Shown: positions 2,600 through 30,907, counted from the stretch's first letter. The stretch: 32,000 nt of DNA from Patescibacteria group bacterium (GCA_023480925.1 JAMCWY010000019.1:12268-44267); one strand, 5' to 3'. A program made the numbers and translations. The notes: a model not told the origin generated them from the sequence alone.

Positions 2600-3115
2600 T
2601 TAATGCATTAAATAAAATGCCGGCGCGATTTTTTTTGAATTAATTTTAACTTCATTTGTTTTTTCCCGTTTTAAATCCAAAGCCCTGCTTCTGTCGCTAA
2701 AGCCGATCCAAACAAGCGGCTTAAAGTACGATTTAATTTTACTGATCGAACCGGCCGATAGTTCCTTAAAAAGAACGACGTCGATTTTTTCAAACTCGAG
2801 ACTGATTTCTTTTAAAACCGCGTCGCTTATATCGGTCGGGCAATAAAGATAATTTAAACCCTCGTTGTCCCTGATGATGAAAAAAAGTTTTTTCGCTTCG
2901 GCTGATTTCAATTTGGATTGAAGAAAAGCTTGAAAATAAAAATTGCCCGCTTCGTACTGGCCGGTCAAGTTGAAAATCCTGCCATCGTTTATATTTCTTT
3001 CCCAGTCGGTCAGAATGTTCACGCCCGCTTCAACTCTGTTCGGATCGAGATAAACTTTGGCCGTCTTATCATAACTCAGGACAAATTTATTTTCGGGAGT
3101 TTTTTTAATTATCAT
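2600..3115 (-). CDS. hypothetical protein (171 aa from the ATG at 3115)
   Basis: The track ORF 2600..3154 starts at a TTG. A TGTTATAAT extended -10 (3138-3146, minus) lies inside that extension, so the ATG at 3115 is the more likely start. No recognisable motifs. Confidence 0.5.
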   Translation of the reverse strand: MIIKKTPENKFVLSYDKTAKVYLDPNRVEAGVNILTDWERNINDGRIFNLTGQYEAGNFYFQAFLQSKLKSAEAKKLFFIIRDNEGLNYLYCPTDISDAVLKEISLEFEKIDVVLFKELSAGSISKIKSYFKPLVWIGFSDRSRALDLKREKTNEVKINSKKIAPAFYLMH

Positions 3116-3302
3116 CTTGCCTTGATTGATTTTTAATATTATAACATAAATCAACTCTTGGTCGAATGAGACGAAACAGCCGTGGTCAAAACGGCTCGCC
3201 CGAACCGTTTATTGCCAGTTTAAGTTTGTTTCCAAAAAATAAATAAAAACAACGCGTCTTTCCGCGAACTGATTCAAATAGATTCGTTTACAATAGAAGT
3301 TA

Positions 3303-4010
3303 ATGGAGATAATTCCGATCAAGACAAGAATTTTCAAAGAAAGCGACGATTTGTTCGGTTTTCTCCGCGCCAATCTTCCGTTATTGAAATCGGGCGATAT
3401 CGTTGTCGTGACTTCAAAAATCGTGGCCCTGGCCCAAGGCCGAACCGTCCTATTTTCGCCTAAAGAAAAATATAAGTGGATAAAAAAAGAAAGCGACCAA
3501 ATTATTAAAACACCCTGGGCTTATCTGACTCTCAGAGAAAAACGTTGGTGCGTTAGCGCCGGTATCGATGAATCTAACGGCCGGGGCCGATTAATTTTTT
3601 TACCCAATGCCCCATTTAGCGTGGCCAAAAATCTTCAAAAGAAATTAAAAAAATTTTATGGCCTAAAAAAAATCGGCGTTCTGATCACGGACACTCGGAG
3701 CACGCCCTTGCGGGCGGGGGTGATCGGTTCAACTCTGGCCTACTTTGGTTTCTCGCCCATGAAAGACTACGTTGGTAAAAAAGATTTATTTGGCAGAAAG
3801 TTTAAATTTGTCAAAAGTAATATTGTTGATGCCTTAGCCGCGGCGGCGGGCGTAACGATGGGCGAAGGAGCGGAACGAAAACCAATTGCCGTTATCCGAA
3901 ATGCCAATGTTTATTTTACTCAAAAAAAACAATCTTTGGCAAAAGTTTTGATTAGACCCGAAAAAGATCTCTACCGATTTATTTACCGCCGAATTCGATC
4001 AACATCTTAA
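3303..4010 (+). CDS. CofE/FbiB-like gamma-glutamyl ligase family protein (F420-0:L-glutamate ligase fold)
   Basis: Motifs LKSGDIVVVTSKIVALAQGR, SAGIDESNG and VLITDTRSTPLRAGVIG are typical of the F420_ligase (CofE) family. Confidence 0.7.
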   Translation: MEIIPIKTRIFKESDDLFGFLRANLPLLKSGDIVVVTSKIVALAQGRTVLFSPKEKYKWIKKESDQIIKTPWAYLTLREKRWCVSAGIDESNGRGRLIFLPNAPFSVAKNLQKKLKKFYGLKKIGVLITDTRSTPLRAGVIGSTLAYFGFSPMKDYVGKKDLFGRKFKFVKSNIVDALAAAAGVTMGEGAERKPIAVIRNANVYFTQKKQSLAKVLIRPEKDLYRFIYRRIRSTS

Positions 4011-4065
4011 TCAGCCGTATTATTTTCGTCCAATCAATAAAATCCTATTTTAAAAAAGAAAAACA

Positions 4066-5364: not shown

Positions 5365-5372
5365 GTCAAATA

Positions 5373-6422
5373 ATGAATAGCATCATTAAAACTAGCCCGG
5401 AATTTAATTTAAATATATCCCGCGGCTTAAAAAAAATCACGATCGGATCGCTTATGAACGGTTTTGTTTTGGCGAAACGACCGAAAGAACTTTTAGTTGA
5501 CTTAAAAAATCTTGGTTTAGCCAGAATCTATGGTCAAGAATATAACCGGGCCAAAAGTCTCATTAACAAAATCAATCCGGGCGACGAAGTTATCGTTAAA
5601 ATCACAAAATTCGACGACGGCTACGGCAATTACGAAGGCTCCCTTCAAGACATTCAAGAAATCAACCAGTGGCAAAAAATCAAAAACTTTCTTAAAACCA
5701 AAAAAGTTCTTGAACTCAAAGTTATCGACGCGAACAAGGGCGGCTTGATCGTCGAAGTCGAAGGGGTTAAAGGTTTTGTTCCAGTTTCCCAGCTTTCGCC
5801 CGAACACTATCCCAGAATTTCAAACAACAACAAACAGGTGATTTTGAATCATTTAAAGAACTTCGTCGGTCAAAGTTTTCCTTTTCGGATTATTAACGCC
5901 GAACCAAGCAACCAAAAATTAATCTTATCCGAACGGTCGGCCTTGGAAGAAACTTCGGCTCAAGCGATCAACCAGTTTAACGTTGGTCAAATTGTCGACG
6001 TTAAAATTGTCGGCTTGGGCAAATTTGGCATCTTTGTCCGCTTTAACGACAACCCGCCCTTGGACGGCCTCGTCCACATCAGCGAGATACCGGAGAAAGA
6101 ACAGGAGTTGGAAACAAGGTTTGAAATCGGCAACAGTTTTAAGGCCAAAATCATCAAGATTGAAGGCGACCGGGCGAACTTCAGCCTAAAAGACTTAAAC
6201 GAAGATCCATGGTTAATATTTTCAAAAGATCACCAGGTCGGCTCAATCATCAAAGGCCGGGTCAGCCAAAAAACAAACGACATTTTCGCCACAGTTGACA
6301 TTGACAAGATCAAAGGCGCGATTTTTGAAAACCTGGACAAGATCAAAGAAAACGAAGATTACGAATTCAAAATCGAAGATTTAAACATTAAGGAAAAAAA
6401 ACTAATTTTAAAGTTGATTTAA
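5373..6422 (+). CDS. rpsA: S1 RNA-binding domain repeat protein (ribosomal protein S1-like)
   Basis: Repeated S1/OB modules, e.g. GGLIVEVEGVKGFVPVSQLS, GQIVDVKIVGLGKFGIFVRF...GLVHISEI and GSIIKGRVSQ. Confidence 0.75.
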   Translation: MNSIIKTSPEFNLNISRGLKKITIGSLMNGFVLAKRPKELLVDLKNLGLARIYGQEYNRAKSLINKINPGDEVIVKITKFDDGYGNYEGSLQDIQEINQWQKIKNFLKTKKVLELKVIDANKGGLIVEVEGVKGFVPVSQLSPEHYPRISNNNKQVILNHLKNFVGQSFPFRIINAEPSNQKLILSERSALEETSAQAINQFNVGQIVDVKIVGLGKFGIFVRFNDNPPLDGLVHISEIPEKEQELETRFEIGNSFKAKIIKIEGDRANFSLKDLNEDPWLIFSKDHQVGSIIKGRVSQKTNDIFATVDIDKIKGAIFENLDKIKENEDYEFKIEDLNIKEKKLILKLI

Positions 6423-6474: not shown

Positions 6475-8325
6475 ATGAAAAAAGGTTTATTATATATAAC
6501 CGTAACCGTTTTAATTATTGTCATCGTCGGCTTGGTTTTTACTTCGCTCAAAAATCACTTGGTTCAAAATGTTTCAATTTATGATGTCGTTAATTTAATC
6601 AAGACCGGCCAAGTTAAAAAAGTCTATGTCAGCTCAAACCAAATCCTGGTCCAACTAACCAACAACAGTCTTGTCAGCGCCGCCAAGGAGAGCCAAGTTT
6701 CTTTCTGGCAAATCGTCAAAGACTCAAAAATTCCTTCGACTCAGTTGGAAAATATCAAAATTCAAATTCAAGACACAAGCTATAGCGCTTTAATTCTTGG
6801 TTTTCTTTTTAATGTTTTGCCCTTTATCGTCATCGGCTGGCTCTTTTGGCGATTTTTTGTCCAAGCTCAAAAAGGCGCGGGCCAAATTTTTTCTTTTTCC
6901 AAATCTGGCGTCCGGATTTATAATCCCCAAAAAGATCGCATCACCTTTAAAGACATCGCCGGTTTAGTTGAAGCAAAAGAAGAGGTTCAAGAAATTATCG
7001 AATTCTTGAAAAACCAAGACCGTTTCGTCCGGCTTGGCGCTCAAATACCCAAAGGCGTCTTGCTTGTTGGCCCGCCCGGCAGCGGTAAAACTTTATTGGC
7101 CCGGGCGGTCGCTTGCGAAAGCAACGTTCCCTTTCTTCATATCTCCGGCTCGGAATTCGTCGAGATGTTCGTCGGCGTTGGCGCCGGCCGAGTCCGCGAC
7201 ACGTTCGCAATGGCGAAAAAATTAGCGCCGTCGATTCTTTTCGTTGACGAACTCGATGCCGTTGGCCGAGCCCGCGGCGTTGGTTTAGGCGGCACTCACG
7301 AAGAACGCGAGCAAACCTTAAACCAAATCTTGGTTGAGATGGACGGTTTGGAAAAAAATTCCGGCGTGATCGTTCTTTCTGCCACCAACCGACCAGACGT
7401 GCTTGATCAAGCTTTGCTCCGACCGGGCCGATTTGACCGAAAAATCGTTCTCGACCTGCCCGACATCAAAGGCCGAGAGGATATCTTAACAATCCATCTG
7501 CGCGATAAAAAAATCGGCAAAATTAATCTGCGCCAAGTGGCCGAGCGCACGCCCGGCTTTACCGGCGCCGATCTGGCCAATCTCGCCAACGAAGCAGCGA
7601 TCTTGGCCGCGCGAAAAAATAAAACCGAAATTGATCAAATTGAACTTTTGGAATCAATCGAAAAAGTTATTCTTGGGCCGGAACGCAAATCAAAAGTTTT
7701 TTCCAAAAAAGAAAAAGAGCTGGCGGCTTACCATGAATCCGGCCACGCCATTGTCGCTCATTATCTCGTCGGAGCCGCCCCCGTCCAAAAAATTTCAATT
7801 ATCAGCCGAGGCCAGGCGGGTGGCTATACAATCAAAGCGCCGTTCGAAGAAAAAAATTTCCACTTTAAAAAGGAATTTTTTGACGAACTGGCGGTTATGC
7901 TTGGTGGTTACGCCGCTGAACTAACTCAGTTCAACGATATTTCAACTGGGGCCGCGAGCGACCTTCAAATCGCGACCGATCTGACCCACCAACTTATCAC
8001 TCGCTACGGCATGTCCGAAACATTCGGACCGATGGCTTTGGGCAAAATCCAAGAACTTAATTATTTAAGCCGAGACGCGATCGTTGAAAAAGATTACTCG
8101 GAAAAAAGCGCTGAGCTAATCGACCTGGAAACGAAGCAAATTTTAGACAACGCCCTGAACCAAGCTAAAAATGTTATTCAAAATAAAATCGATAAATTTA
8201 AAAAACTCGCTTCGTATTTGATTAAAAAAGAAACGATCGAAAAAAAACAATTTGAAAAGTTAATCGGCGACAAAAAAGGTTCTTTTTCGACCGAGCCAAC
8301 GCTCGCGCCGAGACCAAACGTTTAA
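6475..8325 (+). CDS. ftsH: ATP-dependent zinc metalloprotease FtsH
   Basis: N-terminal TM segments, Walker [12 protein letters not shown]+ core ([19 protein letters not shown]) and the zinc site HESGHA. Confidence 0.96.
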
Positions 8326-26089: not shown

Positions 26090-26774
26090 TGGCTTCTTCC
26101 GGTTCAGATTGGCCTAATCGACTAAATAACTCGATCATCTCTTCTTTCGAATAAATATCGAAGTCGCGCAGCTCACCCAAATAATTTTGTTCATAAGTTT
26201 TTAAGTACTGGTTGACGTAATCCACGATCGCGTCGGTTCGGCTAAAATTTTTCTTAAAAAGATCGAAACCATATTGAAGCTCAAGCAGATGCGCCTGGCG
26301 AATGGCGAAAAGCCAAGCTGAACGTTCCGCCAATAAAACTTCTTCGTATTCTTTTTTAATCGCTTTTAACCTTGACTCCGGATAAATATTAGCCTTGTCC
26401 AATGCTCTCGATTTCTGATTAGCTTTTATCGCCGACCAGATGAATTCCGTCTCAGTCGAATCAACAACATGACCAATTTCGTGAAGGAGGTTGAACAAAT
26501 CCTTAATCTCGTCAAATCGCCCGACCAAAACTTCCGGTTTTTGACCATGATGATTAGGCATAACCGCTGACCAATCATTCTTCCGACTTAACCTAAATTT
26601 CGTTCCGGCCGGTACAAACCAGTTAAAATCGAGAACGATCAGATTATCCTTTTTGAAACCGATAAACAAATCGTCATTTTCTTTTCTTTTAATCGTCAAC
26701 TTTAAACCCTGACCCAACTCGATTGATTTTTCTTTTTTCAACCAACCCAATCCCTCTTTTAATTGATTGAACAT
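26082..26774 (-). CDS. hypothetical HExxH (HEIGH) putative metallopeptidase-like protein
   Basis: LLHEIGHVVD motif. The start is moved to the ATG at 26774 because TTGGCG-N17-TATAAT (the -10 at 26782-26787, minus) sits 7 nt upstream of it. The 3' end overlaps the xseA start by 8 nt. Confidence 0.55.
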   Translation of the reverse strand: MFNQLKEGLGWLKKEKSIELGQGLKLTIKRKENDDLFIGFKKDNLIVLDFNWFVPAGTKFRLSRKNDWSAVMPNHHGQKPEVLVGRFDEIKDLFNLLHEIGHVVDSTETEFIWSAIKANQKSRALDKANIYPESRLKAIKKEYEEVLLAERSAWLFAIRQAHLLELQYGFDLFKKNFSRTDAIVDYVNQYLKTYEQNYLGELRDFDIYSKEEMIELFSRLGQSEPEEANG

Positions 26775-26883
26775 TACTAATATTATAAAACTAGAAATAA
26801 AAACTCGCCAACTCGACAATCAGAACAGTTGATTTAAAACAACCATGAAAATAACTCGACCAAAAAGCAACGAGAGAACGAAT

Positions 26884-27438
26884 TTAACTCAAACCCAAAA
26901 CCTCGTTGATTGAAATCATCGCGTCAAGGGCGAGTTGAATCAGTTCGTTTAACCCCAACTTCAAATACTCTTCCGACTTCAAAATAATATTTCGGTCAAC
27001 GCCGGCAGCAAACGATTTTTCCTTGAACTTTTTTAAAACCGAGTCAACGGTCACGTCCTTTAATTTTTTTGAGGGCTGAACCAAAGCGCAAGCGACGATC
27101 AAACCGGTAATCTCTTCGGTCGAGTAAAGCGCTTTTTCCAAAAGCGATTCCGGTTCAAAACCGTGAATGTGATTGTGAACTTTGACCGCCTGAATGATCT
27201 CTTTGGGGAAACCTTCCTTTTCCAAAACCGCCGCCGCGATTAAACTATGTTCTTCCGGCGTCTCTTTTGTTTCTTCCCAATCAAGATCGTGAACTAAACC
27301 GGCCAGGCCCCAAATTTCTTCGTCTTGGTTAAATTTTCTGGCTAAAGCCCGCATCAACGCCTCAACCGCGAAAAGATGCTTTTTTAAATTCTCGTTTTGA
27401 ATATGTTCGTCCAAAAGACACAAGGCTTTTTCCCGCAT
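26884..27438 (-). CDS. HD-domain phosphohydrolase
   Basis: H...HD motif (LAGLVHDLDW) plus downstream His residues (VKVHNHIH). Confidence 0.75.
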   Translation of the reverse strand: MREKALCLLDEHIQNENLKKHLFAVEALMRALARKFNQDEEIWGLAGLVHDLDWEETKETPEEHSLIAAAVLEKEGFPKEIIQAVKVHNHIHGFEPESLLEKALYSTEEITGLIVACALVQPSKKLKDVTVDSVLKKFKEKSFAAGVDRNIILKSEEYLKLGLNELIQLALDAMISINEVLGLS

Positions 27439-27474
27439 AATTTTTAGTTTAAATATTTAATCCTCGACGAGTCT

Positions 27475-27483
27475 TGTTATAAT
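27475..27483 (+). promoter_or_regulatory. extended -10 promoter TGTTATAAT upstream of tRNA-Gln
   Basis: TG at 27475-27476 and TATAAT at 27478-27483, about 70 nt before the tRNA 5' end. Confidence 0.45.
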
Positions 27484-27552
27484 ACAAACATAAGTAATTA
27501 TTATAAATGATTCCGTTGAAGTTTAAATGAAAAATAAAATCAACGGGAAAAT

Positions 27553-27626
27553 TGCGGGGTCGTCTAATGGTAGGACCGTGGACTCTGGATCCATGTATCT
27601 AGGTTCGAATCCTAGCCCCGCAGCCA
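27553..27626 (+). tRNA. tRNA-Gln (anticodon CUG), CCA encoded
   Basis: I folded it by hand. The acceptor is TGCGGGG/CCCCGCA (U1-A72) with discriminator G73 and CCA. The D stem is GTCT/GGAC. The anticodon stem is GTGGA/TCCAT with loop CT-CTG-GA. The T arm is CTAGG-TTCGAAT-CCTAG. Total length is 74 nt. Confidence 0.93.
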
Positions 27627-27637
27627 AATTTGACGCA

Positions 27638-27839
27638 ACAAACTTTTGACATTATTTTGCCGAATTTAATCCACAAATCTAAGAAACGAGACCTTACCTG
27701 ATAGTTGCCCGCCGCCTGCGGCGGCGGGTAGGAAAACCCGTCGGCTCTCGCGGGCAAAAATTTTTCCCCTCAAACTCCCCCAATTTTTGGCCGCGAGACA
27801 ACCACAAAAGATTTACAAAATCAGTGAGATAGTGTATAA
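27638..27839. repeat. left copy of the 202-bp inverted repeat (IR-L)
   Basis: It matches the reverse complement of 30423-30624 at 194/202 positions with no gaps (hand alignment). Confidence 0.95.
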
Positions 27840-27840
27840 A
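27812..27840 (+). promoter_or_regulatory. inward-facing promoter TTTACA-N17-TATAAA at the inner end of IR-L
   Basis: -35 at 27812-27817, -10 at 27835-27840, and an exact 17-nt spacer. Confidence 0.6.
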
Positions 27841-27845
27841 GTTAA

Positions 27846-28238
27846 TCAGTACATTCAAATTCCAAACGAAAAGAGAAGAGGTGTAACTGTGTTTATTTAT
27901 ATCGGTGGCGTACCCGGGAACAGATGCTTACGATAACGCTCATTGTCGCGACCCCCATACCATCTGCGTCGCCGTCTCAAAGACGCGGACGATCGGCATG
28001 ACCGTAAGCGTAATATTGATTTTCTGATTCACGAACAGAAAATAGAAGTCAATATTGCCGTTTCTCAAGCCGCAGAACTCGGCATTCCTCTTTGCTGCGT
28101 GAGTAATAAGGGTGGCGAGAATCCGATAGCTTCGGAAGTACTTTTCTCTTTCTGTGTCCACCAAGCGCTATGCCGCAAAATACTGCGGCGCATCTTTCCC
28201 TGACCCACCGTACATTTCCCTACGGTGGGTTTTTATTT
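27846..28238 (+). ncRNA. candidate structured non-coding transcript (~390 nt), family unknown
   Basis: It is bounded by the IR-L promoter and a strong intrinsic terminator, and it is locally GC-enriched. It contains several helices, including 27926-27932/28003-28009, a 15-bp bulged hairpin at 28012-28056, and 28172-28189. The only ORFs are TTG-initiated, lack an RBS and mutually overlap. Confidence 0.45.
28203..28238 (+). terminator. rho-independent terminator (plus-strand orientation)
   Basis: ACCCACCGTA (28203-28212), an 8-nt loop, then TACGGTGGGT (28221-28230), followed by TTTTTATTT. On the minus strand no T-run follows the stem. Confidence 0.8.
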
Positions 28239-28781
28239 GAATACGCAATTTTCTTTAGTAATACCGTGGTTTTTTTTATAATCTTCCCATAGACCAAGGT
28301 ATGCCCTGGTAATCCTTGGCCGATCTAAAAGATTAAATTCGTTGAGATACCGATCTATTGTTTTCGGTTCACCCTCAAACTCAACAAAAAAACCGAAAGG
28401 TAATTTGTCAAATGAGATAGCAATATCATTTTTGAAAACATTTTTTCGTTTTTTCTCAAAAATAATTTCTTTGCTAAAACCCAAAGACCTCAATATCTCC
28501 CTCAAATTTTCAATATTTTCACCCTCTTTCATTTTTATCTCCAGTTCTTCTCGCTCAAAAAACTGGGCGTTTTCTCTTGTTTTTCTTTTCACAGTTAAAA
28601 TAATCTCTTTTTTCTCTCCTTCTACATATTTAATTCTTGGGAAAATGCCATCTTTGATGTTTGAAAAATCCTCTTTGAAATAGCCAAAGGTTCTTTCCAG
28701 GTGGAAATTATCAAAACCATCGGTAAAACGGCTAAATTCTTCAGGCGTTAATTCAATTTTTACTTCTATTTCTTTTTTCAT
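28233..28781 (-). CDS. CYTH-domain protein (triphosphate tunnel metalloenzyme; CyaB/ThTPase-like)
   Basis: N-terminal ExExK motif (EIEVKIE), plus further acidic strand motifs (REELEIK, FVEFEGE). It is 182 aa. It overlaps the upstream gene by 29 nt. Confidence 0.7.
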   Translation of the reverse strand: MKKEIEVKIELTPEEFSRFTDGFDNFHLERTFGYFKEDFSNIKDGIFPRIKYVEGEKKEIILTVKRKTRENAQFFEREELEIKMKEGENIENLREILRSLGFSKEIIFEKKRKNVFKNDIAISFDKLPFGFFVEFEGEPKTIDRYLNEFNLLDRPRITRAYLGLWEDYKKNHGITKENCVFK

Positions 28782-29664
28782 ATTTTTCTTCTTTTTCGTG
28801 GTCGTAATACGTTGGATATTTTTCAGACATTGGGAATCTGTATTTTGTTTGGTCTTTCACTCCCGCTTCTTTATATCCCCTCCGTCGGTCCCAACAAGTG
28901 GGACAATCGCCGCATTCGATATCAAATGATTTAACACAGGTTCTTGCTTTGTGCAGGGGTATTCCGTTTTCGAAAGACCATTTTATAAAAACATCTTTAT
29001 CAAAATAATTTCCAAACTCCGTTTCTATGGGGAGTGATATAAACTGCCAAGACCAATCGTTCAGTATTTGACAAAATAATATGTTCATTAACCTAACCCA
29101 AGTTTGAGAACAGTGATAGGAAAAATCCGAACTCATATTAGAGGCGAATACTGTTTTTGTTTCAACCCCCAGTGCTTTTAAAGAATAGCCGTACTCCATT
29201 CCGGTTAAAAATACTATTGGTCCTCTTGCCGGATAAGATATGTTATGACTTAACGGAATATCATCCATTATTCTTTTTGTTTTTCTCAATAAATCCTTGT
29301 ATTCCATCCCCGGCGTCATAATAGTTATCTCTTTATAATTGTGATAAAGTTTTGGGAATTTTCTCTTGTAAAATCGGTCAAAATAATCTACTGACTTCTT
29401 CTCATATTTGTAGTTTGACTGGCCCCTGTTTATGAAAAATGGATAAACATTCAAACTAAATTCTTTTAACAGTATTTCTATATTGGCAACGGAATCTTGG
29501 CCGCCAGACAAACAAGCAACAACGCTATCACCCCCTTTTGGCATTTTAACAACATACCCTCTTTTACTTTTCAGGATACCATCATATATCTTGAGTAGAG
29601 TAATATCCTCATTCTCTTTATTTTCGAATTTTACTTCTCCTTGTTTATTCAGTATTTTGGTCAT
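28753..29664 (-). CDS. QueC-like PP-loop ATPase (7-cyano-7-deazaguanine synthase family)
   Basis: PP-loop ACLSGGQDS and a C-terminal Cys cluster C-x7-C-x2-C-x2-C (CVKSFDIECGDCPTC), followed by RRRGYKEAGVKDQTKY, as in QueC. It has a roughly 45-aa N-terminal extension. Confidence 0.72.
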   Translation of the reverse strand: MTKILNKQGEVKFENKENEDITLLKIYDGILKSKRGYVVKMPKGGDSVVACLSGGQDSVANIEILLKEFSLNVYPFFINRGQSNYKYEKKSVDYFDRFYKRKFPKLYHNYKEITIMTPGMEYKDLLRKTKRIMDDIPLSHNISYPARGPIVFLTGMEYGYSLKALGVETKTVFASNMSSDFSYHCSQTWVRLMNILFCQILNDWSWQFISLPIETEFGNYFDKDVFIKWSFENGIPLHKARTCVKSFDIECGDCPTCWDRRRGYKEAGVKDQTKYRFPMSEKYPTYYDHEKEEKYEKRNRSKN

Positions 29665-30388
29665 AGTGCTTGTATGATTTGATTATTTCTTTTGCTTCCC
29701 CAACGGTTTCTTGATAAATATGTGCATCAGTTATAAAACCATCCAATGGCCCAACCCAAACATTGGTGTTCAATTTTTCTTTTAATCGTTCTACTACTTC
29801 CTTGGACAAAAGAGAGATTGCGACAAAATTTCCTCCAGCTTTTTGATACGCATCTATCGATCTTGCGTTAAATAATGTATTCATGTGATACCCCCTTTCC
29901 CCATTCATTTTAATAAGTCGGAATTGGACAGTTGTAATGCAGGGCAAATAATCATCTTTGGGCCTATCCAAAACTCTTTGATAATCCTCGTGTCTTATAA
30001 AACTCATAATTGCTTTTTTGGATTCTGGAATTTCGGCTAATCTCGCAACCACAAAATCTAACATTCCCCAATCTTTTATTCTTGCATAATAACTTTTACT
30101 ACCGGGACTAAACGAAGGCACGACATCAAAATCGTGCATTATATCCTTGGTGAATGTGAGTTCTATTATCTGGTCTATGTTTTTTTTATCCCCATACTTT
30201 TCAATAAGAACATCGGGGAGAGATTGCGTTGCTGATTTCATACGGATATTCTGCAGACTAACTCTTTTTCTCCCATCATCTTCAGTGAGCACTCCATTTT
30301 TAATAATCGCTTCAACTAAGCTCAACCAGACGCTTCCTATTGTTTCACCGAAAATGTTATAACCGAATGGTTCTAGTTTGACATACAT
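29645..30388 (-). CDS. thymidylate synthase (ThyA) fold enzyme, archaeal-like short form
   Basis: It carries LPCITTVQF (catalytic Cys with Q at +5), ARSID followed by N at D+8 (GGNFVAISLL), and TDAHIY (D-x-H-x-Y). These match the ThyA active-site layout. Confidence 0.72.
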   Translation of the reverse strand: MYVKLEPFGYNIFGETIGSVWLSLVEAIIKNGVLTEDDGRKRVSLQNIRMKSATQSLPDVLIEKYGDKKNIDQIIELTFTKDIMHDFDVVPSFSPGSKSYYARIKDWGMLDFVVARLAEIPESKKAIMSFIRHEDYQRVLDRPKDDYLPCITTVQFRLIKMNGERGYHMNTLFNARSIDAYQKAGGNFVAISLLSKEVVERLKEKLNTNVWVGPLDGFITDAHIYQETVGEAKEIIKSYKHYDQNTE

Positions 30389-30421
30389 AAGTTTAAATTA
30401 TTCACAAAAACGATGGTTTAA

Positions 30422-30450
30422 ATTATACACTATCTCACTGATTTTGTAAA
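30422..30450 (-). promoter_or_regulatory. inward-facing promoter TTTACA-N17-TATAAT at the inner end of IR-R, driving the ThyA-like/QueC-like/CYTH operon
   Basis: On the minus strand the -35 is at 30445-30450 and the -10 at 30422-30427, with a 17-nt spacer. The ATG at 30388 implies a leader of about 27 nt with no Shine-Dalgarno sequence. Confidence 0.65.
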
Positions 30451-30624
30451 TCTTTTGTGTTTATCTCGCGGCCAAAAATTGGGGGAGTTTGAGGGGGAAA
30501 ATTTTTGCCCGCGAGAGCCGACGGGTTTTCCTACCCGCCGCCGCAGGCGGCGGGCAACTATCAGGTAAGGTTTCGTTTCTTAGATTTGTGGATTAGGTTT
30601 GGTAAAATAATGTCAAAAGTTTGT
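30423..30624. repeat. right copy of the 202-bp inverted repeat (IR-R)
   Basis: Reverse complement of IR-L, with 8 substitutions and no indels. Confidence 0.95.
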
Positions 30625-30625
30625 G

Positions 30626-30647
30626 GGTGTTCTAATTCCGCAGCCAA
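30626..30647 (+). repeat. degenerate copy of the tRNA-Gln T-arm/3' acceptor end (putative att remnant)
   Basis: GGTGTTCTAATTCCGCAGCCAA compares with the tRNA's AGGTTCGAATCC[TAGCC]CCGCAGCCAA. The exact 10-mer CCGCAGCCAA occurs at 27618-27627 and 30638-30647 in the same orientation. Confidence 0.5.
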
Positions 30648-30907
30648 GCTGTAAAGTTTCTGTTTCCCGCCCGAGCGAAAATTATCAAAAGTCAGTGTCC
30701 GGATTTCCTTTGAAAAAAGTTCGGATTTTGTTCAGGAAGGACAGCCAATTTAGTTTGTAAAGTTTGGTGTGTTTGTTAGAGAAATACCAAAAAAAGTCAA
30801 ATTCCTGCCCATGATCAGTACAAATTGCGGTTGCGGCCAAGACGTACTGCTGTCACGATACGTTAAAAAAGAGACCGCAGTCAAACGGAAAAACTTAAAA
30901 TAATATT

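What the first reader, a model, noticed from the sequence alone, without database searches (positions are those of the whole stretch)
27638..30624. Pair of 202-bp inverted repeats (194/202 identical, no gaps) bracketing the cassette
IR-L (27638-27839) equals the reverse complement of IR-R (30423-30624) except for 8 substitutions. Six of the eight cluster near the outer end and just before the -35 element. The hairpin stems and promoter hexamers are untouched.

The similarity ends exactly at the -10 hexamers, so the duplicated unit is a structured region plus a promoter rather than coding sequence. At 202 bp the repeats are far longer than typical IS terminal repeats. There is no matching target-site duplication directly outside them (TGACGCA versus GGGTGTT).

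Possibilities include a duplicated regulatory module that co-regulates two divergent-origin, convergent transcripts, ends of a novel non-autonomous element, or two copies of a dispersed MITE-like repeat.
Basis: seen in the sequence. Interest (0 to 1): 0.72.

Follow-up and report, generated by a model that had tools for sequence, protein, structure and literature searches.

The report
Duplicated inverted promoter regions flanking gene cassette
The two 202-bp inverted repeats are real: they are two copies of one promoter plus its upstream control region, pointing inward at a small strain-variable gene cassette beside a tRNA gene in an uncultivated (CPR) bacterium, and they are kept alike by copying between the copies rather than being transposon ends.

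Summary
Arms 27638-27839 and 30423-30624 match at 194/202 with no gaps, and weaker similarity runs to 211 nt.

Each arm ends at a sigma-70-like promoter (TTTACA-17-TATAAA/T) that fires inward. The right arm drives a thymidylate-synthase-like / QueC-like / CYTH-like operon. The left arm drives what the sequence alone suggested was a non-coding transcript. It is in fact a dead P-loop kinase gene, with a ~298-nt deletion and a frameshift.

About ten related CPR (Nealsonbacteria/Paceibacteria) loci show the same layout, with arms from 17 to at least 363 nt. Arms within a genome are 96-100% alike, while equivalent arms between genomes are 72-88% alike. That pattern indicates concerted evolution by gene conversion. 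A conserved upstream palindrome ("hairpin 2") is almost confined to these promoters.

The whole block (27625-30750) is missing from a sister strain with 95-98% identical flanks. It sits at the 3' end of tRNA-Gln and is followed by a displaced copy of the tRNA end.

It is therefore not an IS or MITE end, a dispersed repeat, an RNA family or an assembly artefact. It is a duplicated regulatory module on an integrase-less, tRNA-linked islet. Co-regulation and inversion are inferred, not shown. Interest is moderate.

The parts
27553..27626 (+). tRNA-Gln(CTG). Its 3' end is the left breakpoint of the strain-variable block.
   Evidence: ARAGORN and Rfam tRNA at 59.4 bits. Homology with sister strains L105/L106 and with contig L107 stops at 27624-27625.
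27618..27627 (+). Left copy of the 10-nt direct repeat CCGCAGCCAA (acceptor end plus CCA of tRNA-Gln). attL-like.
27638..27848 (+). IR-L: the left copy of the promoter-plus-upstream module. The 194/202 core is 27638-27839.
27638..27700 (+). Outer block of the module (..TTTTGCCGAATTTAATCCAC..). It is conserved in L090, L094, L081, L049 and L028, and five of the eight arm differences lie here.
27708..27728 (+). Hairpin 1, CCCGCCGCC-TGC-GGCGGCGGG. It is invariant in six related copies. Its mirror copy is at 30534-30554.
27746..27798 (+). Hairpin 2: inverted arms (core GGGCAAAAATT / AATTTTTGGCC, 27752-27792) around a polypyrimidine spacer, CCCCTCAAACTCCCCC. It ends 7 bp before the AAAAGA that precedes the -35 hexamer (13 bp before TTTACA itself). 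Its mirror copy is at 30470-30510.
27812..27840 (+). Left promoter, TTTACA-17-TATAAA, firing rightwards into the kinase remnant.
   Evidence: Sequence. The same core lies upstream of intact kinase genes in relatives. The scan did not list it, but it did list its right-hand twin.
27889..28203 (+). Pseudogene of an AAA_17 / adenylate-kinase-like P-loop kinase. The first 15 codons (VFIYIGGVPG...) run into a stop at 27934-27936. A ~298-nt deletion removes the Walker A motif. The C-terminal 82 residues survive as the ORF 27943-28203.
   Evidence: BLAST to intact genes in L002, L008 and L013. BLASTP 67% over 82 aa, E = 5e-41. Alignment and translation. Pfam/NCBIfam matches of the intact homologue.
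28202..28231 (+). Intrinsic-terminator-like hairpin with a T-run at the point where the two transcription units converge. It is conserved in L002.
28233..28781 (-). CYTH-like gene (182 aa), third gene of the operon.
   Evidence: Pfam CYTH E = 1.7e-4 (21.9 bits, below the 23.2-bit curated cutoff). NCBIfam class IV adenylate cyclase at 23.7 bits, below cutoff.
28753..29664 (-). QueC-like PP-loop ATPase gene (303 aa).
   Evidence: Pfam QueC E = 4e-9. PADLOC QueC E = 5.6e-14. 131 homologues in CPR metagenomes.
29645..30388 (-). Thymidylate-synthase-like gene (247 aa), first gene of the operon.
   Evidence: Pfam Thymidylat_synt E = 3.2e-7. NCBIfam hits far below cutoff. No PDB sequence match.
30414..30624 (-). 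IR-R: the right copy of the module. Its promoter, TTTACA-17-TATAAT (30450..30422 on the minus strand), fires leftwards into the operon.
   Evidence: Promoter scan scores 11/12.
30638..30647 (+). Right copy of CCGCAGCCAA. Together with the next 12 nt (22 nt in all) it matches the tRNA-Gln end and its downstream flank in sister strain L105 at 17 of 22 positions, counting a 2-nt gap. attR-like displaced tRNA fragment.
27625..30750 (.). Strain-variable block (3.1 kb) that is absent from sister strains. L105 carries 3.97 kb of unrelated genes in the same place.

Best explanation
The repeat is an inverted duplication of one promoter together with about 165 bp of its upstream control region. The two copies face inward and bracket a small convergent gene cassette.

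The right copy transcribes the TS-like / QueC-like / CYTH-like operon. The left copy transcribes a partner kinase gene, which in this genome has been inactivated by a deletion. Because both units carry the same -35/-10 and the same upstream palindrome (hairpin 2, 6-13 bp upstream of the AAAAGA that precedes the -35), they should respond to the same RNA polymerase holoenzyme and the same unknown DNA-binding factor. That would make them co-regulated (inferred).

The copies stay nearly identical because they recombine with each other. Gene conversion between the inverted arms repeatedly overwrites one arm with the other. The inner limit is always the -10, where the gene-specific 5' UTRs begin. 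The outer limit varies. This is shown by comparison between genomes; the mechanism itself is inferred.

The whole block is accessory DNA lodged at the 3' end of tRNA-Gln, with a displaced copy of the tRNA end on its far side and no integrase of its own. It is probably the remnant of site-specific integration (inferred).

Because each arm carries a promoter, an inversion of the cassette by arm-to-arm crossover would leave both units expressed. One cross-genome comparison hints that such a flip has happened.
For: Anatomy:
- Identity ends at the -10 hexamers and both promoters point inward.
- The left unit is a kinase remnant homologous to intact 193-203-aa genes in relatives.
- A terminator lies at the point of convergence.

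Conservation of the layout:
- [arm->TS-QueC-CYTH(-DUF2103)][kinase<-arm] recurs in L002, L008, L039, L045, L047, L052, L053, L054, L060 and L061.
- The core AAAGATTTACAAAAT occurs at both sites and essentially nowhere else in those loci.

Concerted evolution:
- Within a genome, arm identity is 96% over 202 nt (window), 100% over at least 121 nt (L053), 100% over at least 99 nt (L054), 98.8% over 255 nt (L060/61) and 100% over at least 51 nt (L008).
- Equivalent arms between genomes are 72-88% identical over shorter spans.
- L052 and L053 are 97.3% identical strains. L053's kinase-side arm equals L052's TS-side arm at 100% over 363 nt, whereas L052's own kinase-side arm is only 76-93% like it.
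- The inner boundary recurs at -35/-39 (TS) and -51/-55 (kinase) from the start codons, and lies 14 nt further in for L008.

Cassette specificity:
- 25 of 28 hairpin-2 matches in 506 kb lie just upstream of a TS or kinase start.
- Hairpin 2 keeps 11-bp arms, and its position 10 covaries: T-A 9, A-T 6, G-C 2.

Islet:
- Sister strain L105/L106 has flanks 94.6-98.2% identical, but homology breaks at 27624 and resumes at 30751.
- The direct repeat CCGCAGCCAA is present, and its right copy plus flank matches L105's tRNA end plus flank at 17 of 22 positions.
- Logan contigs end exactly at the tRNA 3' end.
- L090 carries a pseudo-tRNA-Gln 3' half outside its kinase-side arm, whereas the window has the fragment outside the TS-side arm.
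Against: - No transcription data exist. Promoter and terminator calls are consensus matches only, and the left promoter was not listed by the scan.
- Co-regulation is untested, and the left target is a pseudogene here, so any selective benefit of the duplicate in this genome is doubtful.
- The factor that would bind hairpin 2 is unknown. The spacer is flipped relative to the promoter in 7 of 24 copies, which argues against an orientation-dependent site.
- Parts of the module occur away from the cassette promoters: L028 next to a serine recombinase, L094 flanking a peptidase gene, and L105 in the alternative islet.
- Simple gene conversion cannot by itself extend homology outward, so some arms must have arisen by fresh duplication or template switching.
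- The 10-nt direct repeat alone is only weakly significant: 1.6% of shuffles and 6% of random window pairs reach it.
- Several long 'arms' in relatives reach contig ends and may be exaggerated by assembly fold-back. L045's 571 nt at 100% is the clearest case.
Confidence: 0.72

Rival explanations
1. Flip-flop segment. The arms are substrates for homologous recombination that inverts the 2.6-kb cassette, and arm identity is a by-product of frequent inversion. This can coexist with the best explanation.
For: A 202-bp repeat at 96% identity is well above the length needed for RecA-type recombination (general knowledge). The concerted evolution documented fits. The displaced tRNA-Gln fragment lies outside the TS-side arm in the window but outside the kinase-side arm in L090. 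Many assemblies break at the arms.
Against: No pair of contigs with the same outer flanks shows both orientations. The apparent case, L052 versus L053, turned out to be a long shared arm. All six L002-type contigs have one orientation. No invertase gene lies in the window. Inversion would change nothing in expression, so it is not a switch. L090's other end is not on the contig.
Confidence: 0.25
2. Terminal inverted repeats of a non-autonomous transposable element, IS-, foldback- or MITE-like, that carries the cassette as cargo.
For: The block is absent from a sister strain. The flanking genes of the cassette differ in nearly every related locus. No transposase lies inside, as expected for a non-autonomous element.
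Against: There is no target-site duplication abutting the arms. The outer ends of the arms differ between genomes, and arm length runs from 17 to at least 363 nt, while the inner end is fixed at the -10. Homology with relatives continues beyond the outer end of IR-R. The arm content is a promoter that relatives also have in single, non-repeated form, as in L009, L044 and L057. No transposase family was found in 32 kb.
Confidence: 0.08
3. Two copies of a generic dispersed repeat (REP- or MITE-like palindromic unit) that happen to flank the cassette.
For: The hairpin module or parts of it occur elsewhere. L028 has one full and two partial copies in 8 kb, next to a large serine recombinase. L094 has a pair around a peptidase gene. 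L105 has one copy in the alternative islet. Hairpin spacers flip as in palindromic repeat units.
Against: There are only two copies in the 32-kb window. 25 of 28 hairpin-2 copies in 506 kb lie at cassette promoters. The hairpin-1 pattern appears in one CPR genome among 185,579 species representatives and in none of 2.9 million viral contigs. The distance from hairpin 2 to the AAAAGA before the -35 is constant at 6-13 bp.
Confidence: 0.08
4. A structured RNA (leader, riboswitch or small RNA) duplicated in front of two genes.
For: The plus-sense strand folds well, at -67.8 kcal/mol with z = -6.3. Hairpin 1 is very stable. One arm position of hairpin 2 covaries.
Against: The segment lies upstream of the promoter, not downstream. 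There is no Rfam match even at E = 10. Hairpin 1 never varies, so there is no covariation to support it. Hairpin-2 mismatches show no G-U bias. The spacer works in both orientations. The opposite strand gives z = -1.9.
Confidence: 0.05
5. Assembly artefact: a collapsed or folded-back repeat.
For: Fold-back contig ends do occur in related metagenome contigs (L045, L008).
Against: The arms show eight differences and run into unique flanks on both sides, with tRNA-Gln/HD on the left and tmk on the right. Independent Logan contigs from SRR10252151 reproduce the inner junction and the tRNA junction. The same architecture appears in many studies.
Confidence: 0.03

Closest known systems
Concerted evolution of inverted duplicates by gene conversion (bacterial tufA/tufB and rRNA operons, from general knowledge; mammalian X-chromosome palindromes, PMC8981503)
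   Same: Two inverted copies in one genome stay far more alike than the equivalent copies in related genomes. Conversion tracts have variable ends.
   Different: Here the converted unit is purely regulatory DNA, a promoter plus its upstream region, and it stops at the -10. The genes behind the two copies are unrelated. The arms are only 50-400 bp.
Saccharomyces chromosome XIV 'flip/flop' region bounded by inverted repeats that are recurrently homogenised (PMC9731477)
   Same: A gene block sits between inverted repeats that are repeatedly homogenised. Both orientations are viable.
   Different: That case is eukaryotic, spans 24 kb and has arms that are coding paralogues. Inversion polymorphism is demonstrated there, whereas here it is only hinted at.
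tRNA-gene-targeted genomic islands (Islander logic, PMC4383910) and cargo-only satellites in tRNA-linked arrays (tycheposons, bioRxiv 10.1101/2020.12.28.424599)
   Same: An intact tRNA lies at one end and a displaced 3' fragment in direct orientation at the other. The block is absent or replaced in a sister strain. There are signs of successive insertions at one site (the second repeat, TGTAAAGTTT, and the tandem tRNA-end motifs in L090).
   Different: There is no integrase in the block or the window. The repeat is only 10 nt. The block is 3 kb. The sister strain has a different insert rather than an empty site. The long inverted repeats are not part of that model.
Small inversions of hairpin loops between short inverted repeats, as described for chloroplast non-coding DNA (general knowledge)
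   Same: The ~20-nt spacer of hairpin 2, and the 3-nt loop of hairpin 1 in L043, is found in either orientation between unchanged arms in related genomes.
   Different: The element sits at a fixed distance from a promoter and keeps a strongly polypyrimidine spacer, which suggests a constraint beyond a neutral hairpin.
Invertible promoter switches (fimS, hin-type phase variation)
   Same: Inverted repeats and promoters occur in the same few hundred base pairs.
   Different: In those switches the promoter lies between short repeats of 9-30 bp and a site-specific invertase is encoded alongside. Here the promoters lie inside long arms, no invertase is present, and inversion would not switch anything.

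Membership tests
IS element / transposon terminal inverted repeats | Transposase encoded between the repeats, or a known autonomous partner | tested here: not met
   The genes between the arms are TS-like, QueC-like, CYTH-like and a kinase remnant. No transposase family was found in any of the 25 larger ORFs of the window.
IS element / transposon terminal inverted repeats | Fixed-length target-site duplication directly abutting the repeats | tested here: not met
   The flanks are TGACGCA and GGGTGTT. The only flank repeat lies 11-14 nt away from the arms.
IS element / transposon terminal inverted repeats | Element termini conserved between copies or genomes | tested here: not met
   The outer ends of the arms differ, with arm lengths from 17 to at least 363 nt. 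The inner ends are fixed at the -10.
MITE / dispersed palindromic repeat | Many copies at unrelated sites in one genome | tested here: inconclusive
   There are two copies in 32 kb. 25 of 28 hairpin-2 copies in 506 kb of related DNA lie at cassette promoters. One CPR hit was found among 185,579 species representatives. The source genome itself could not be scanned, and L028 has partial extra copies.
tRNA-integrated genomic island | Intact tRNA gene at one boundary | tested here: met
   tRNA-Gln lies at 27553-27626 and the strain breakpoint is at 27624-27625.
tRNA-integrated genomic island | Displaced tRNA 3' fragment in direct orientation at the other boundary | tested here: inconclusive
   CCGCAGCCAA occurs at 30638-30647. 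Shuffle p is about 0.016 and the random-pair rate is 0.06. It is strengthened by a 17-of-22 match (counting a 2-nt gap) to L105's tRNA end plus flank and by a longer pseudo-tRNA-Gln fragment in L090.
tRNA-integrated genomic island | Integrase (tyrosine or serine recombinase) encoded in the island | tested here: not met
   None in the block or the window. A large serine recombinase lies next to a module copy only in L028.
tRNA-integrated genomic island | Presence/absence polymorphism between close relatives | tested here: met
   L105/L106 lack the block. Their flanks are 94.6-98.2% identical, but a different 3.97-kb insert occupies the site, so no empty site was seen.
Site-specific invertible switch | Adjacent invertase, and short inverted repeats enclosing the promoter | tested here: not met
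   There is no recombinase. The promoters lie inside 202-bp arms.
Integron cassette / attC | attC core sites (RYYYAAC ... GTTRRRY) and an intI integrase | tested here: not met
   The arms of hairpin 2 are GGGCAAAAAnT / AnTTTTTGCCC. No integrase was found. The consensus is recalled from general knowledge.
Curated RNA family (Rfam 15) | Covariance-model match | tested here: not met
   Only tRNA-Gln reaches threshold. Nothing meaningful appears at E up to 10 in 27400-30900.
Intrinsic terminator | GC-rich hairpin followed by a T-run | tested here: not met
   Hairpins 1 and 2 are not in the terminator scan. Only 28202-28231 qualifies near the cassette.
Sigma-70-type promoter | -35 and -10 hexamers with 16-18 bp spacing, upstream of a gene | tested here: met
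   The right arm, TTTACA-17-TATAAT, scores 11/12. The left arm is TTTACA-17-TATAAA. The motif is conserved in front of TS and kinase genes in relatives. Activity is not testable with these tools.

The most novel reading that the evidence does not exclude
The arms make the cassette a self-sufficient, orientation-proof expression unit: a promoter-capped gene block. On this reading it is moved between tRNA 3' ends by a recombinase acting in trans, such as the large serine recombinase next to a module copy in L028. It can also flip by arm-to-arm recombination without losing expression.

Hairpin 2 (11-bp inverted arms around a ~20-nt polypyrimidine spacer, found in either orientation) would then be a new kind of DNA-level control or recombination site. 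It could be cruciform- or triplex-prone, and would be specific to an uncharacterised nucleotide-modifying or signalling pathway of CPR bacteria.
Probability: 0.15. Interest if true: 0.65.

Novelty: new variant of a known kind. Interest (0 to 1): 0.38.

Why it matters
Very little is known about how CPR/Patescibacteria regulate genes or shuffle their accessory DNA, and they cannot be grown alone. This locus gives a clean natural example of a promoter with a conserved upstream element that is duplicated, kept identical by recombination, and tied to one conserved but uncharacterised gene set: TS-like, QueC-like, CYTH-like and kinase, sometimes with DUF2103.

It supplies a concrete promoter consensus and a candidate operator for these organisms. 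It shows that gene conversion acts on short regulatory repeats in tiny genomes. It also marks tRNA-Gln as an insertion hotspot.

Practically, it explains why assemblies of this cassette so often break into contigs of about 3 kb. It does not open a long-standing question, and each component process is already known elsewhere.

Tried and rejected
- **Non-coding RNA after IR-L.** The fold had z = -4.7 and Rfam was negative. I rejected this once BLAST showed the region is a kinase-gene remnant.
- **Defence-system assignment.** PADLOC hits only QueC. NCBIfam QatC scores 17 bits against a 280-bit cutoff. Not supported.
- **Pattern scans.** Hairpin 1 and the hairpin-2 spacer gave 0 hits in viral contigs. 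Hairpin 1 gave 20 hits in genome contigs, 19 of them chance matches in GC-rich genomes.
- **Spurious ORF across the unit.** I searched it against the protein database to find other copies. It had no candidates, which is uninformative.
- **L052/L053 as inversion isomers.** I rejected this because the shared 363 nt is the arm itself.
- **L105's 219-aa ORF as a truncated CYTH.** BLASTP gave E = 0.12 and there was no Pfam hit. Dropped.
- **Second promoter copy in L006.** I tested whether it precedes a known RNA. There was no Rfam match.
- **Source contig.** The look-up via P0121 found no record.
- **Literature.** The search for this gene combination returned only phage papers with unrelated co-mentions.
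- **L045's 571-nt arm at 100%.** I did not use it as evidence of arm length, because it reaches the contig end and the contig has a second fold-back at its other end.

Full report
**1. The observation.**
The window holds an inverted repeat with arms 27638-27848 and 30414-30624, 211 nt at 94%. Aligned without gaps, the first 202 positions differ at eight sites: unit positions 22, 25, 28, 29, 53, 128, 162 and 165. After position 202 the arms diverge inside the -10 hexamer, which reads TATAAA on the left and TATAAT on the right.

None of the eight differences touches the 9-bp stem of hairpin 1 (27708-27728), the arms of hairpin 2 (27746-27762 / 27782-27798) or the -35 hexamer. The hairpin-1 motif never occurs in shuffled sequence.

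**2. What lies between and around the arms.**
On the minus strand, behind the right arm, three overlapping genes form an operon. They are a thymidylate-synthase-like protein (29645-30388), a QueC-like PP-loop ATPase (28753-29664) and a CYTH-like protein (28233-28781). All are remote members of their families.

Behind the left arm there is no long ORF, and the region folds well. It is nevertheless not an RNA gene. It aligns at 77-80% DNA identity with an AAA_17 / adenylate-kinase-like gene that is intact (193-203 aa) in relatives.

In the window the first 10 codons (VFIYIGGVPG) are followed by a ~298-nt deletion that removes the Walker A lysine and shifts the frame. A stop follows at 27934-27936. 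The last 82 residues survive as an ORF with 67% identity to the intact protein. A terminator-like hairpin with a T-run (28202-28231) sits where the two units converge.

Left of the repeat is tRNA-Gln(CTG), 27553-27626. Right of it is thymidylate kinase. The rest of the window is housekeeping DNA of a CPR bacterium, with no recombinase or transposase. Source annotations of close protein relatives name Nealsonbacteria, Paceibacteria and the Patescibacteria group.

**3. The arms are promoter regions.**
Each arm ends with TTTACA-17-TATAAA/T pointing inward. The scan scores the right one 11/12.

I mapped the four proteins and the unit onto about 90 related loci, fetched through the QueC-like protein. 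The layout [arm -> TS-QueC-CYTH (sometimes + DUF2103)] [kinase <- arm] appears in L002, L008, L039, L045, L047, L052, L053, L054, L060 and L061.

The core AAAGATTTACAAAAT occurs upstream of both units and almost nowhere else in those loci. Where the kinase is co-directional (L006, L048), a different promoter (TTGACA-17-TATAAT) is instead present as a direct repeat.

Duplication of the promoter is therefore a conserved property of this gene set.

**4. Concerted evolution.**
Arm length and identity within genomes are:
- 202 nt at 96% (window)
- 52 nt at 92% (L002)
- at least 51 nt at 100% (L008, contig-limited)
- at least 121 nt and at least 99 nt at 100% (L053 and L054, contig-limited)
- 255 nt at 98.8% (L060/61)
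- 17 nt (L039)
- none (L041, L051)

Equivalent arms in different genomes are only 72-88% identical over shorter stretches.

The inner limit of identity is the same in independent lineages. It lies at -35/-39 from the TS start and -51/-55 from the kinase start, that is, at the -10. In L008 it lies 14 nt further in.

The clearest single case is L052 versus L053, two strains that are 97.3% identical across the cassette. L053's kinase-side arm is 100% identical over 363 nt to L052's TS-side arm. L052's own kinase-side arm is only 76-93% like it. One arm has recently been overwritten by the other.

I infer gene conversion between the inverted arms, with occasional fresh duplication or template switching to explain arms that grew outward. 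In the window, the left arm looks like such an overwrite. Relatives have ...GACGCA directly joined to AAAAGATTTACA (L002, L044, L051), whereas the window has the 167-bp module inserted exactly between them.

**5. The upstream module.**
Two module types exist. Type A is found in the window, L090, L028, L094, L081 and L049. It has an outer block (..TTTTRCCGAATTTAATCCAC..), hairpin 1 and hairpin 2. Type B (L045-47, L052-54, L060/61, L104, L002) has a different outer part but the same hairpin 2.

Hairpin 1 plus AGGAAAA is invariant in six type-A copies whose surroundings are about 80% identical. It is therefore conserved, but offers no covariation.

Hairpin 2 has 11-bp arms, GGGCAAAAAnT / AnTTTTTGCCC. 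Positions 1-9 are nearly fixed and position 10 covaries (T-A 9, A-T 6, G-C 2). Because the paired arms of one genome are not independent, this represents few separate events.

Its 17-25-nt spacer is 76-86% pyrimidine, often as two C-runs around AAA. It ends 6-13 bp before the AAAAGA that precedes the -35.

In 506 kb of related DNA, 25 of 28 matches lie directly upstream of a TS or kinase start, counting the window's pseudogene copy. In 7 of 24 the spacer is inverted relative to the promoter while the arms and flanks stay collinear.

I read hairpin 2 as a DNA-level upstream element of this promoter, either an operator or activator site or a structural element. It is prone to the small hairpin inversions known from other genomes. 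Its function is inferred. An RNA role is unlikely because the element lies upstream of the promoter, has no Rfam match and tolerates flipping.

**6. Is it a generic repeat?**
The window has two copies only. The hairpin-1 pattern gave 0 hits in viral contigs. It gave 20 in 185,579 species-representative genomes, of which 19 are chance hits in GC-rich organisms and one is a Nealsonbacteria MAG, L028.

In L028 a module without the cassette promoter lies beside a large serine recombinase. Its outer block recurs at the ends of a separate ~370-bp inverted repeat that brackets another inward-transcribed gene block. In L094 a pair of hairpin-2 copies brackets a peptidase gene in the position where the kinase normally sits.

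The module is therefore not strictly confined to the cassette, but it is far from a dispersed repeat. The window's own genome was not in the scanned collection, so a whole-genome copy number is still missing.

**7. The block is accessory DNA at a tRNA gene.**
The HD-domain neighbour led to a sister strain (L105, a 226-kb contig, and L106) whose flanks are 94.6-98.2% identical to the window. Homology stops at 27624, the 3' end of tRNA-Gln, and resumes at 30751. In between, L105 carries 3.97 kb of unrelated genes plus one hairpin-2 copy with a degenerate promoter.

A Logan contig from the same run as the cassette contig ends exactly at 27625. A contig from a 74%-identical relative also ends at its tRNA-Gln 3' end. 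Both suggest a branch point in the assembly graph.

The last 10 nt of the tRNA, CCGCAGCCAA (27618-27627), recur in direct orientation at 30638-30647, 13 nt outside the right arm. Alone this is weak: 1.6% of shuffles and 6% of random window pairs reach it. However, the right copy plus its flank, CCGCAGCCAAGCTGTAAAGTTT, matches L105's tRNA end plus flank, CCGCAGC--AGCTATAAAACTT, at 17 of 22 positions counting the 2-nt gap.

L090 has a longer pseudo-tRNA-Gln 3' half in the same position relative to its arm. A second 10-nt repeat, TGTAAAGTTT (30650-30659 and 30756-30765), brackets the remaining ~96 nt.

This is the geometry of site-specific integration at a tRNA 3' end (PMC4383910). The site has been used more than once and no integrase remains. 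The flanking genes of the cassette differ in almost every related locus, and its kinase side abuts different tRNA genes: Gln, Arg, Gly/Pro and Ala.

**8. Inversion.**
In the window the displaced tRNA fragment lies outside the TS-side arm. In L090 it lies outside the kinase-side arm. If both reflect the same kind of integration, the cassette has flipped between its arms at least once. Because each arm carries a promoter, both orientations would be expressed.

This is a single indirect comparison. I found no contig pair with shared flanks and opposite orientation.

**9. Verdict.**
The repeat is real and non-random. It is best explained as an inverted duplication of a promoter and its upstream control region. 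It flanks a convergent four-gene cassette (three genes plus a pseudogene here), is homogenised by gene conversion, and lies on an integrase-less tRNA-Gln-linked islet.

It is not an IS or MITE terminus, an integron site, a phase-variation switch, a known RNA or an artefact. Co-regulation, the role of hairpin 2, the mode of mobility and the occurrence of inversion remain inferences.

Each process involved is known elsewhere. The combination is new as a variant and of moderate interest: regulatory-only arms with a fixed inner boundary at the -10, conserved across many CPR lineages.

Noticed in passing
window 27889-28203: The kinase gene paired with the cassette is a pseudogene here, with a ~298-nt deletion of the P-loop region plus a frameshift. 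Its promoter copy is nevertheless still 96% identical to the operon's.
   Followed up: yes
window 28233-30388 and about 90 related loci (L001-L104): The gene set TS-like + QueC-like + CYTH-like + AAA_17 kinase (sometimes + DUF2103) is conserved in more than 100 CPR contigs. All members are far below family cutoffs and none has a PDB sequence match. It may be an uncharacterised nucleotide-modification or signalling pathway. A histidine kinase and a receiver-only response regulator lie nearby in 7 loci.
   Followed up: partly
window 26138-26848: A 711-bp segment carrying a 245-aa ORF with no Pfam family is absent from sister strains L105/L106. The junction shows a 14-nt overlap. This is a second strain-specific indel, 800 bp from the islet.
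   Followed up: partly
window 30650-30659 and 30756-30765: A second 10-nt direct repeat, TGTAAAGTTT, brackets ~96 nt between the attR-like site and the point where homology with L105 resumes. L105's 3.97-kb insert sits between the equivalent motifs. This suggests repeated insertions at one site.
   Followed up: partly
L028 1-8000 (Nealsonbacteria MAG JAUWMZ010000001.1): A large serine recombinase (694-2187) has a 246-nt inverted duplicate of its own 3' end (301-546 versus 1913-2158). A tRNA-3'-half-like stretch lies at the end of the gene. Elsewhere in the locus a ~370-bp inverted repeat (3322-3668 / 7013-7343) with inward promoters brackets a 3.3-kb gene block next to tRNA-Asn. All three sites begin with the outer block of the window's module.
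   Followed up: partly
L094 1400-3131: In the position where the kinase normally sits, an M16-type peptidase-like gene with its own TTGACA/TATAAT promoter is bracketed by an inverted pair of hairpin-2 copies plus 20 shared nt. It looks as if the kinase had been swapped out at the hairpins.
   Followed up: no
L052 329-370, L053 37-78 and 2953-2994, L054 3153-3195 and 6616-6658, L039 3150-3192, L081 about 113-156; L043 about 3100-3125: The spacer of hairpin 2, and the 3-nt loop of hairpin 1 in L043, is inverted in place between unchanged arms in several lineages. These are recurrent small hairpin inversions.
   Followed up: partly
L006 2463-2504 and 5443-5484 (also L048): In the variant with a co-directional kinase, a different promoter plus about 40 nt of leader is duplicated as a direct repeat. 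The second copy precedes about 550 nt with no ORF call and no Rfam match.
   Followed up: partly
L045 1-571 / 3475-4045 and 3849-3938 / 5372-5461; L008 1-51 / 2912-2962: Perfect inverted repeats reach the contig ends in these metagenome contigs. They are probably assembly fold-backs or repeat-limited contigs. Many contigs carrying this cassette are only 2-3.6 kb long because assemblies break at the arms.
   Followed up: partly
L009-L012, flanks of the cassette: A 90%-identical copy of the AT-rich operon (about 35% GC) sits between markedly GC-rich flanks, with a tRNA gene right after CYTH and no kinase or second arm. This points either to horizontal transfer into a different genomic background or to a chimeric contig.
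   Followed up: no
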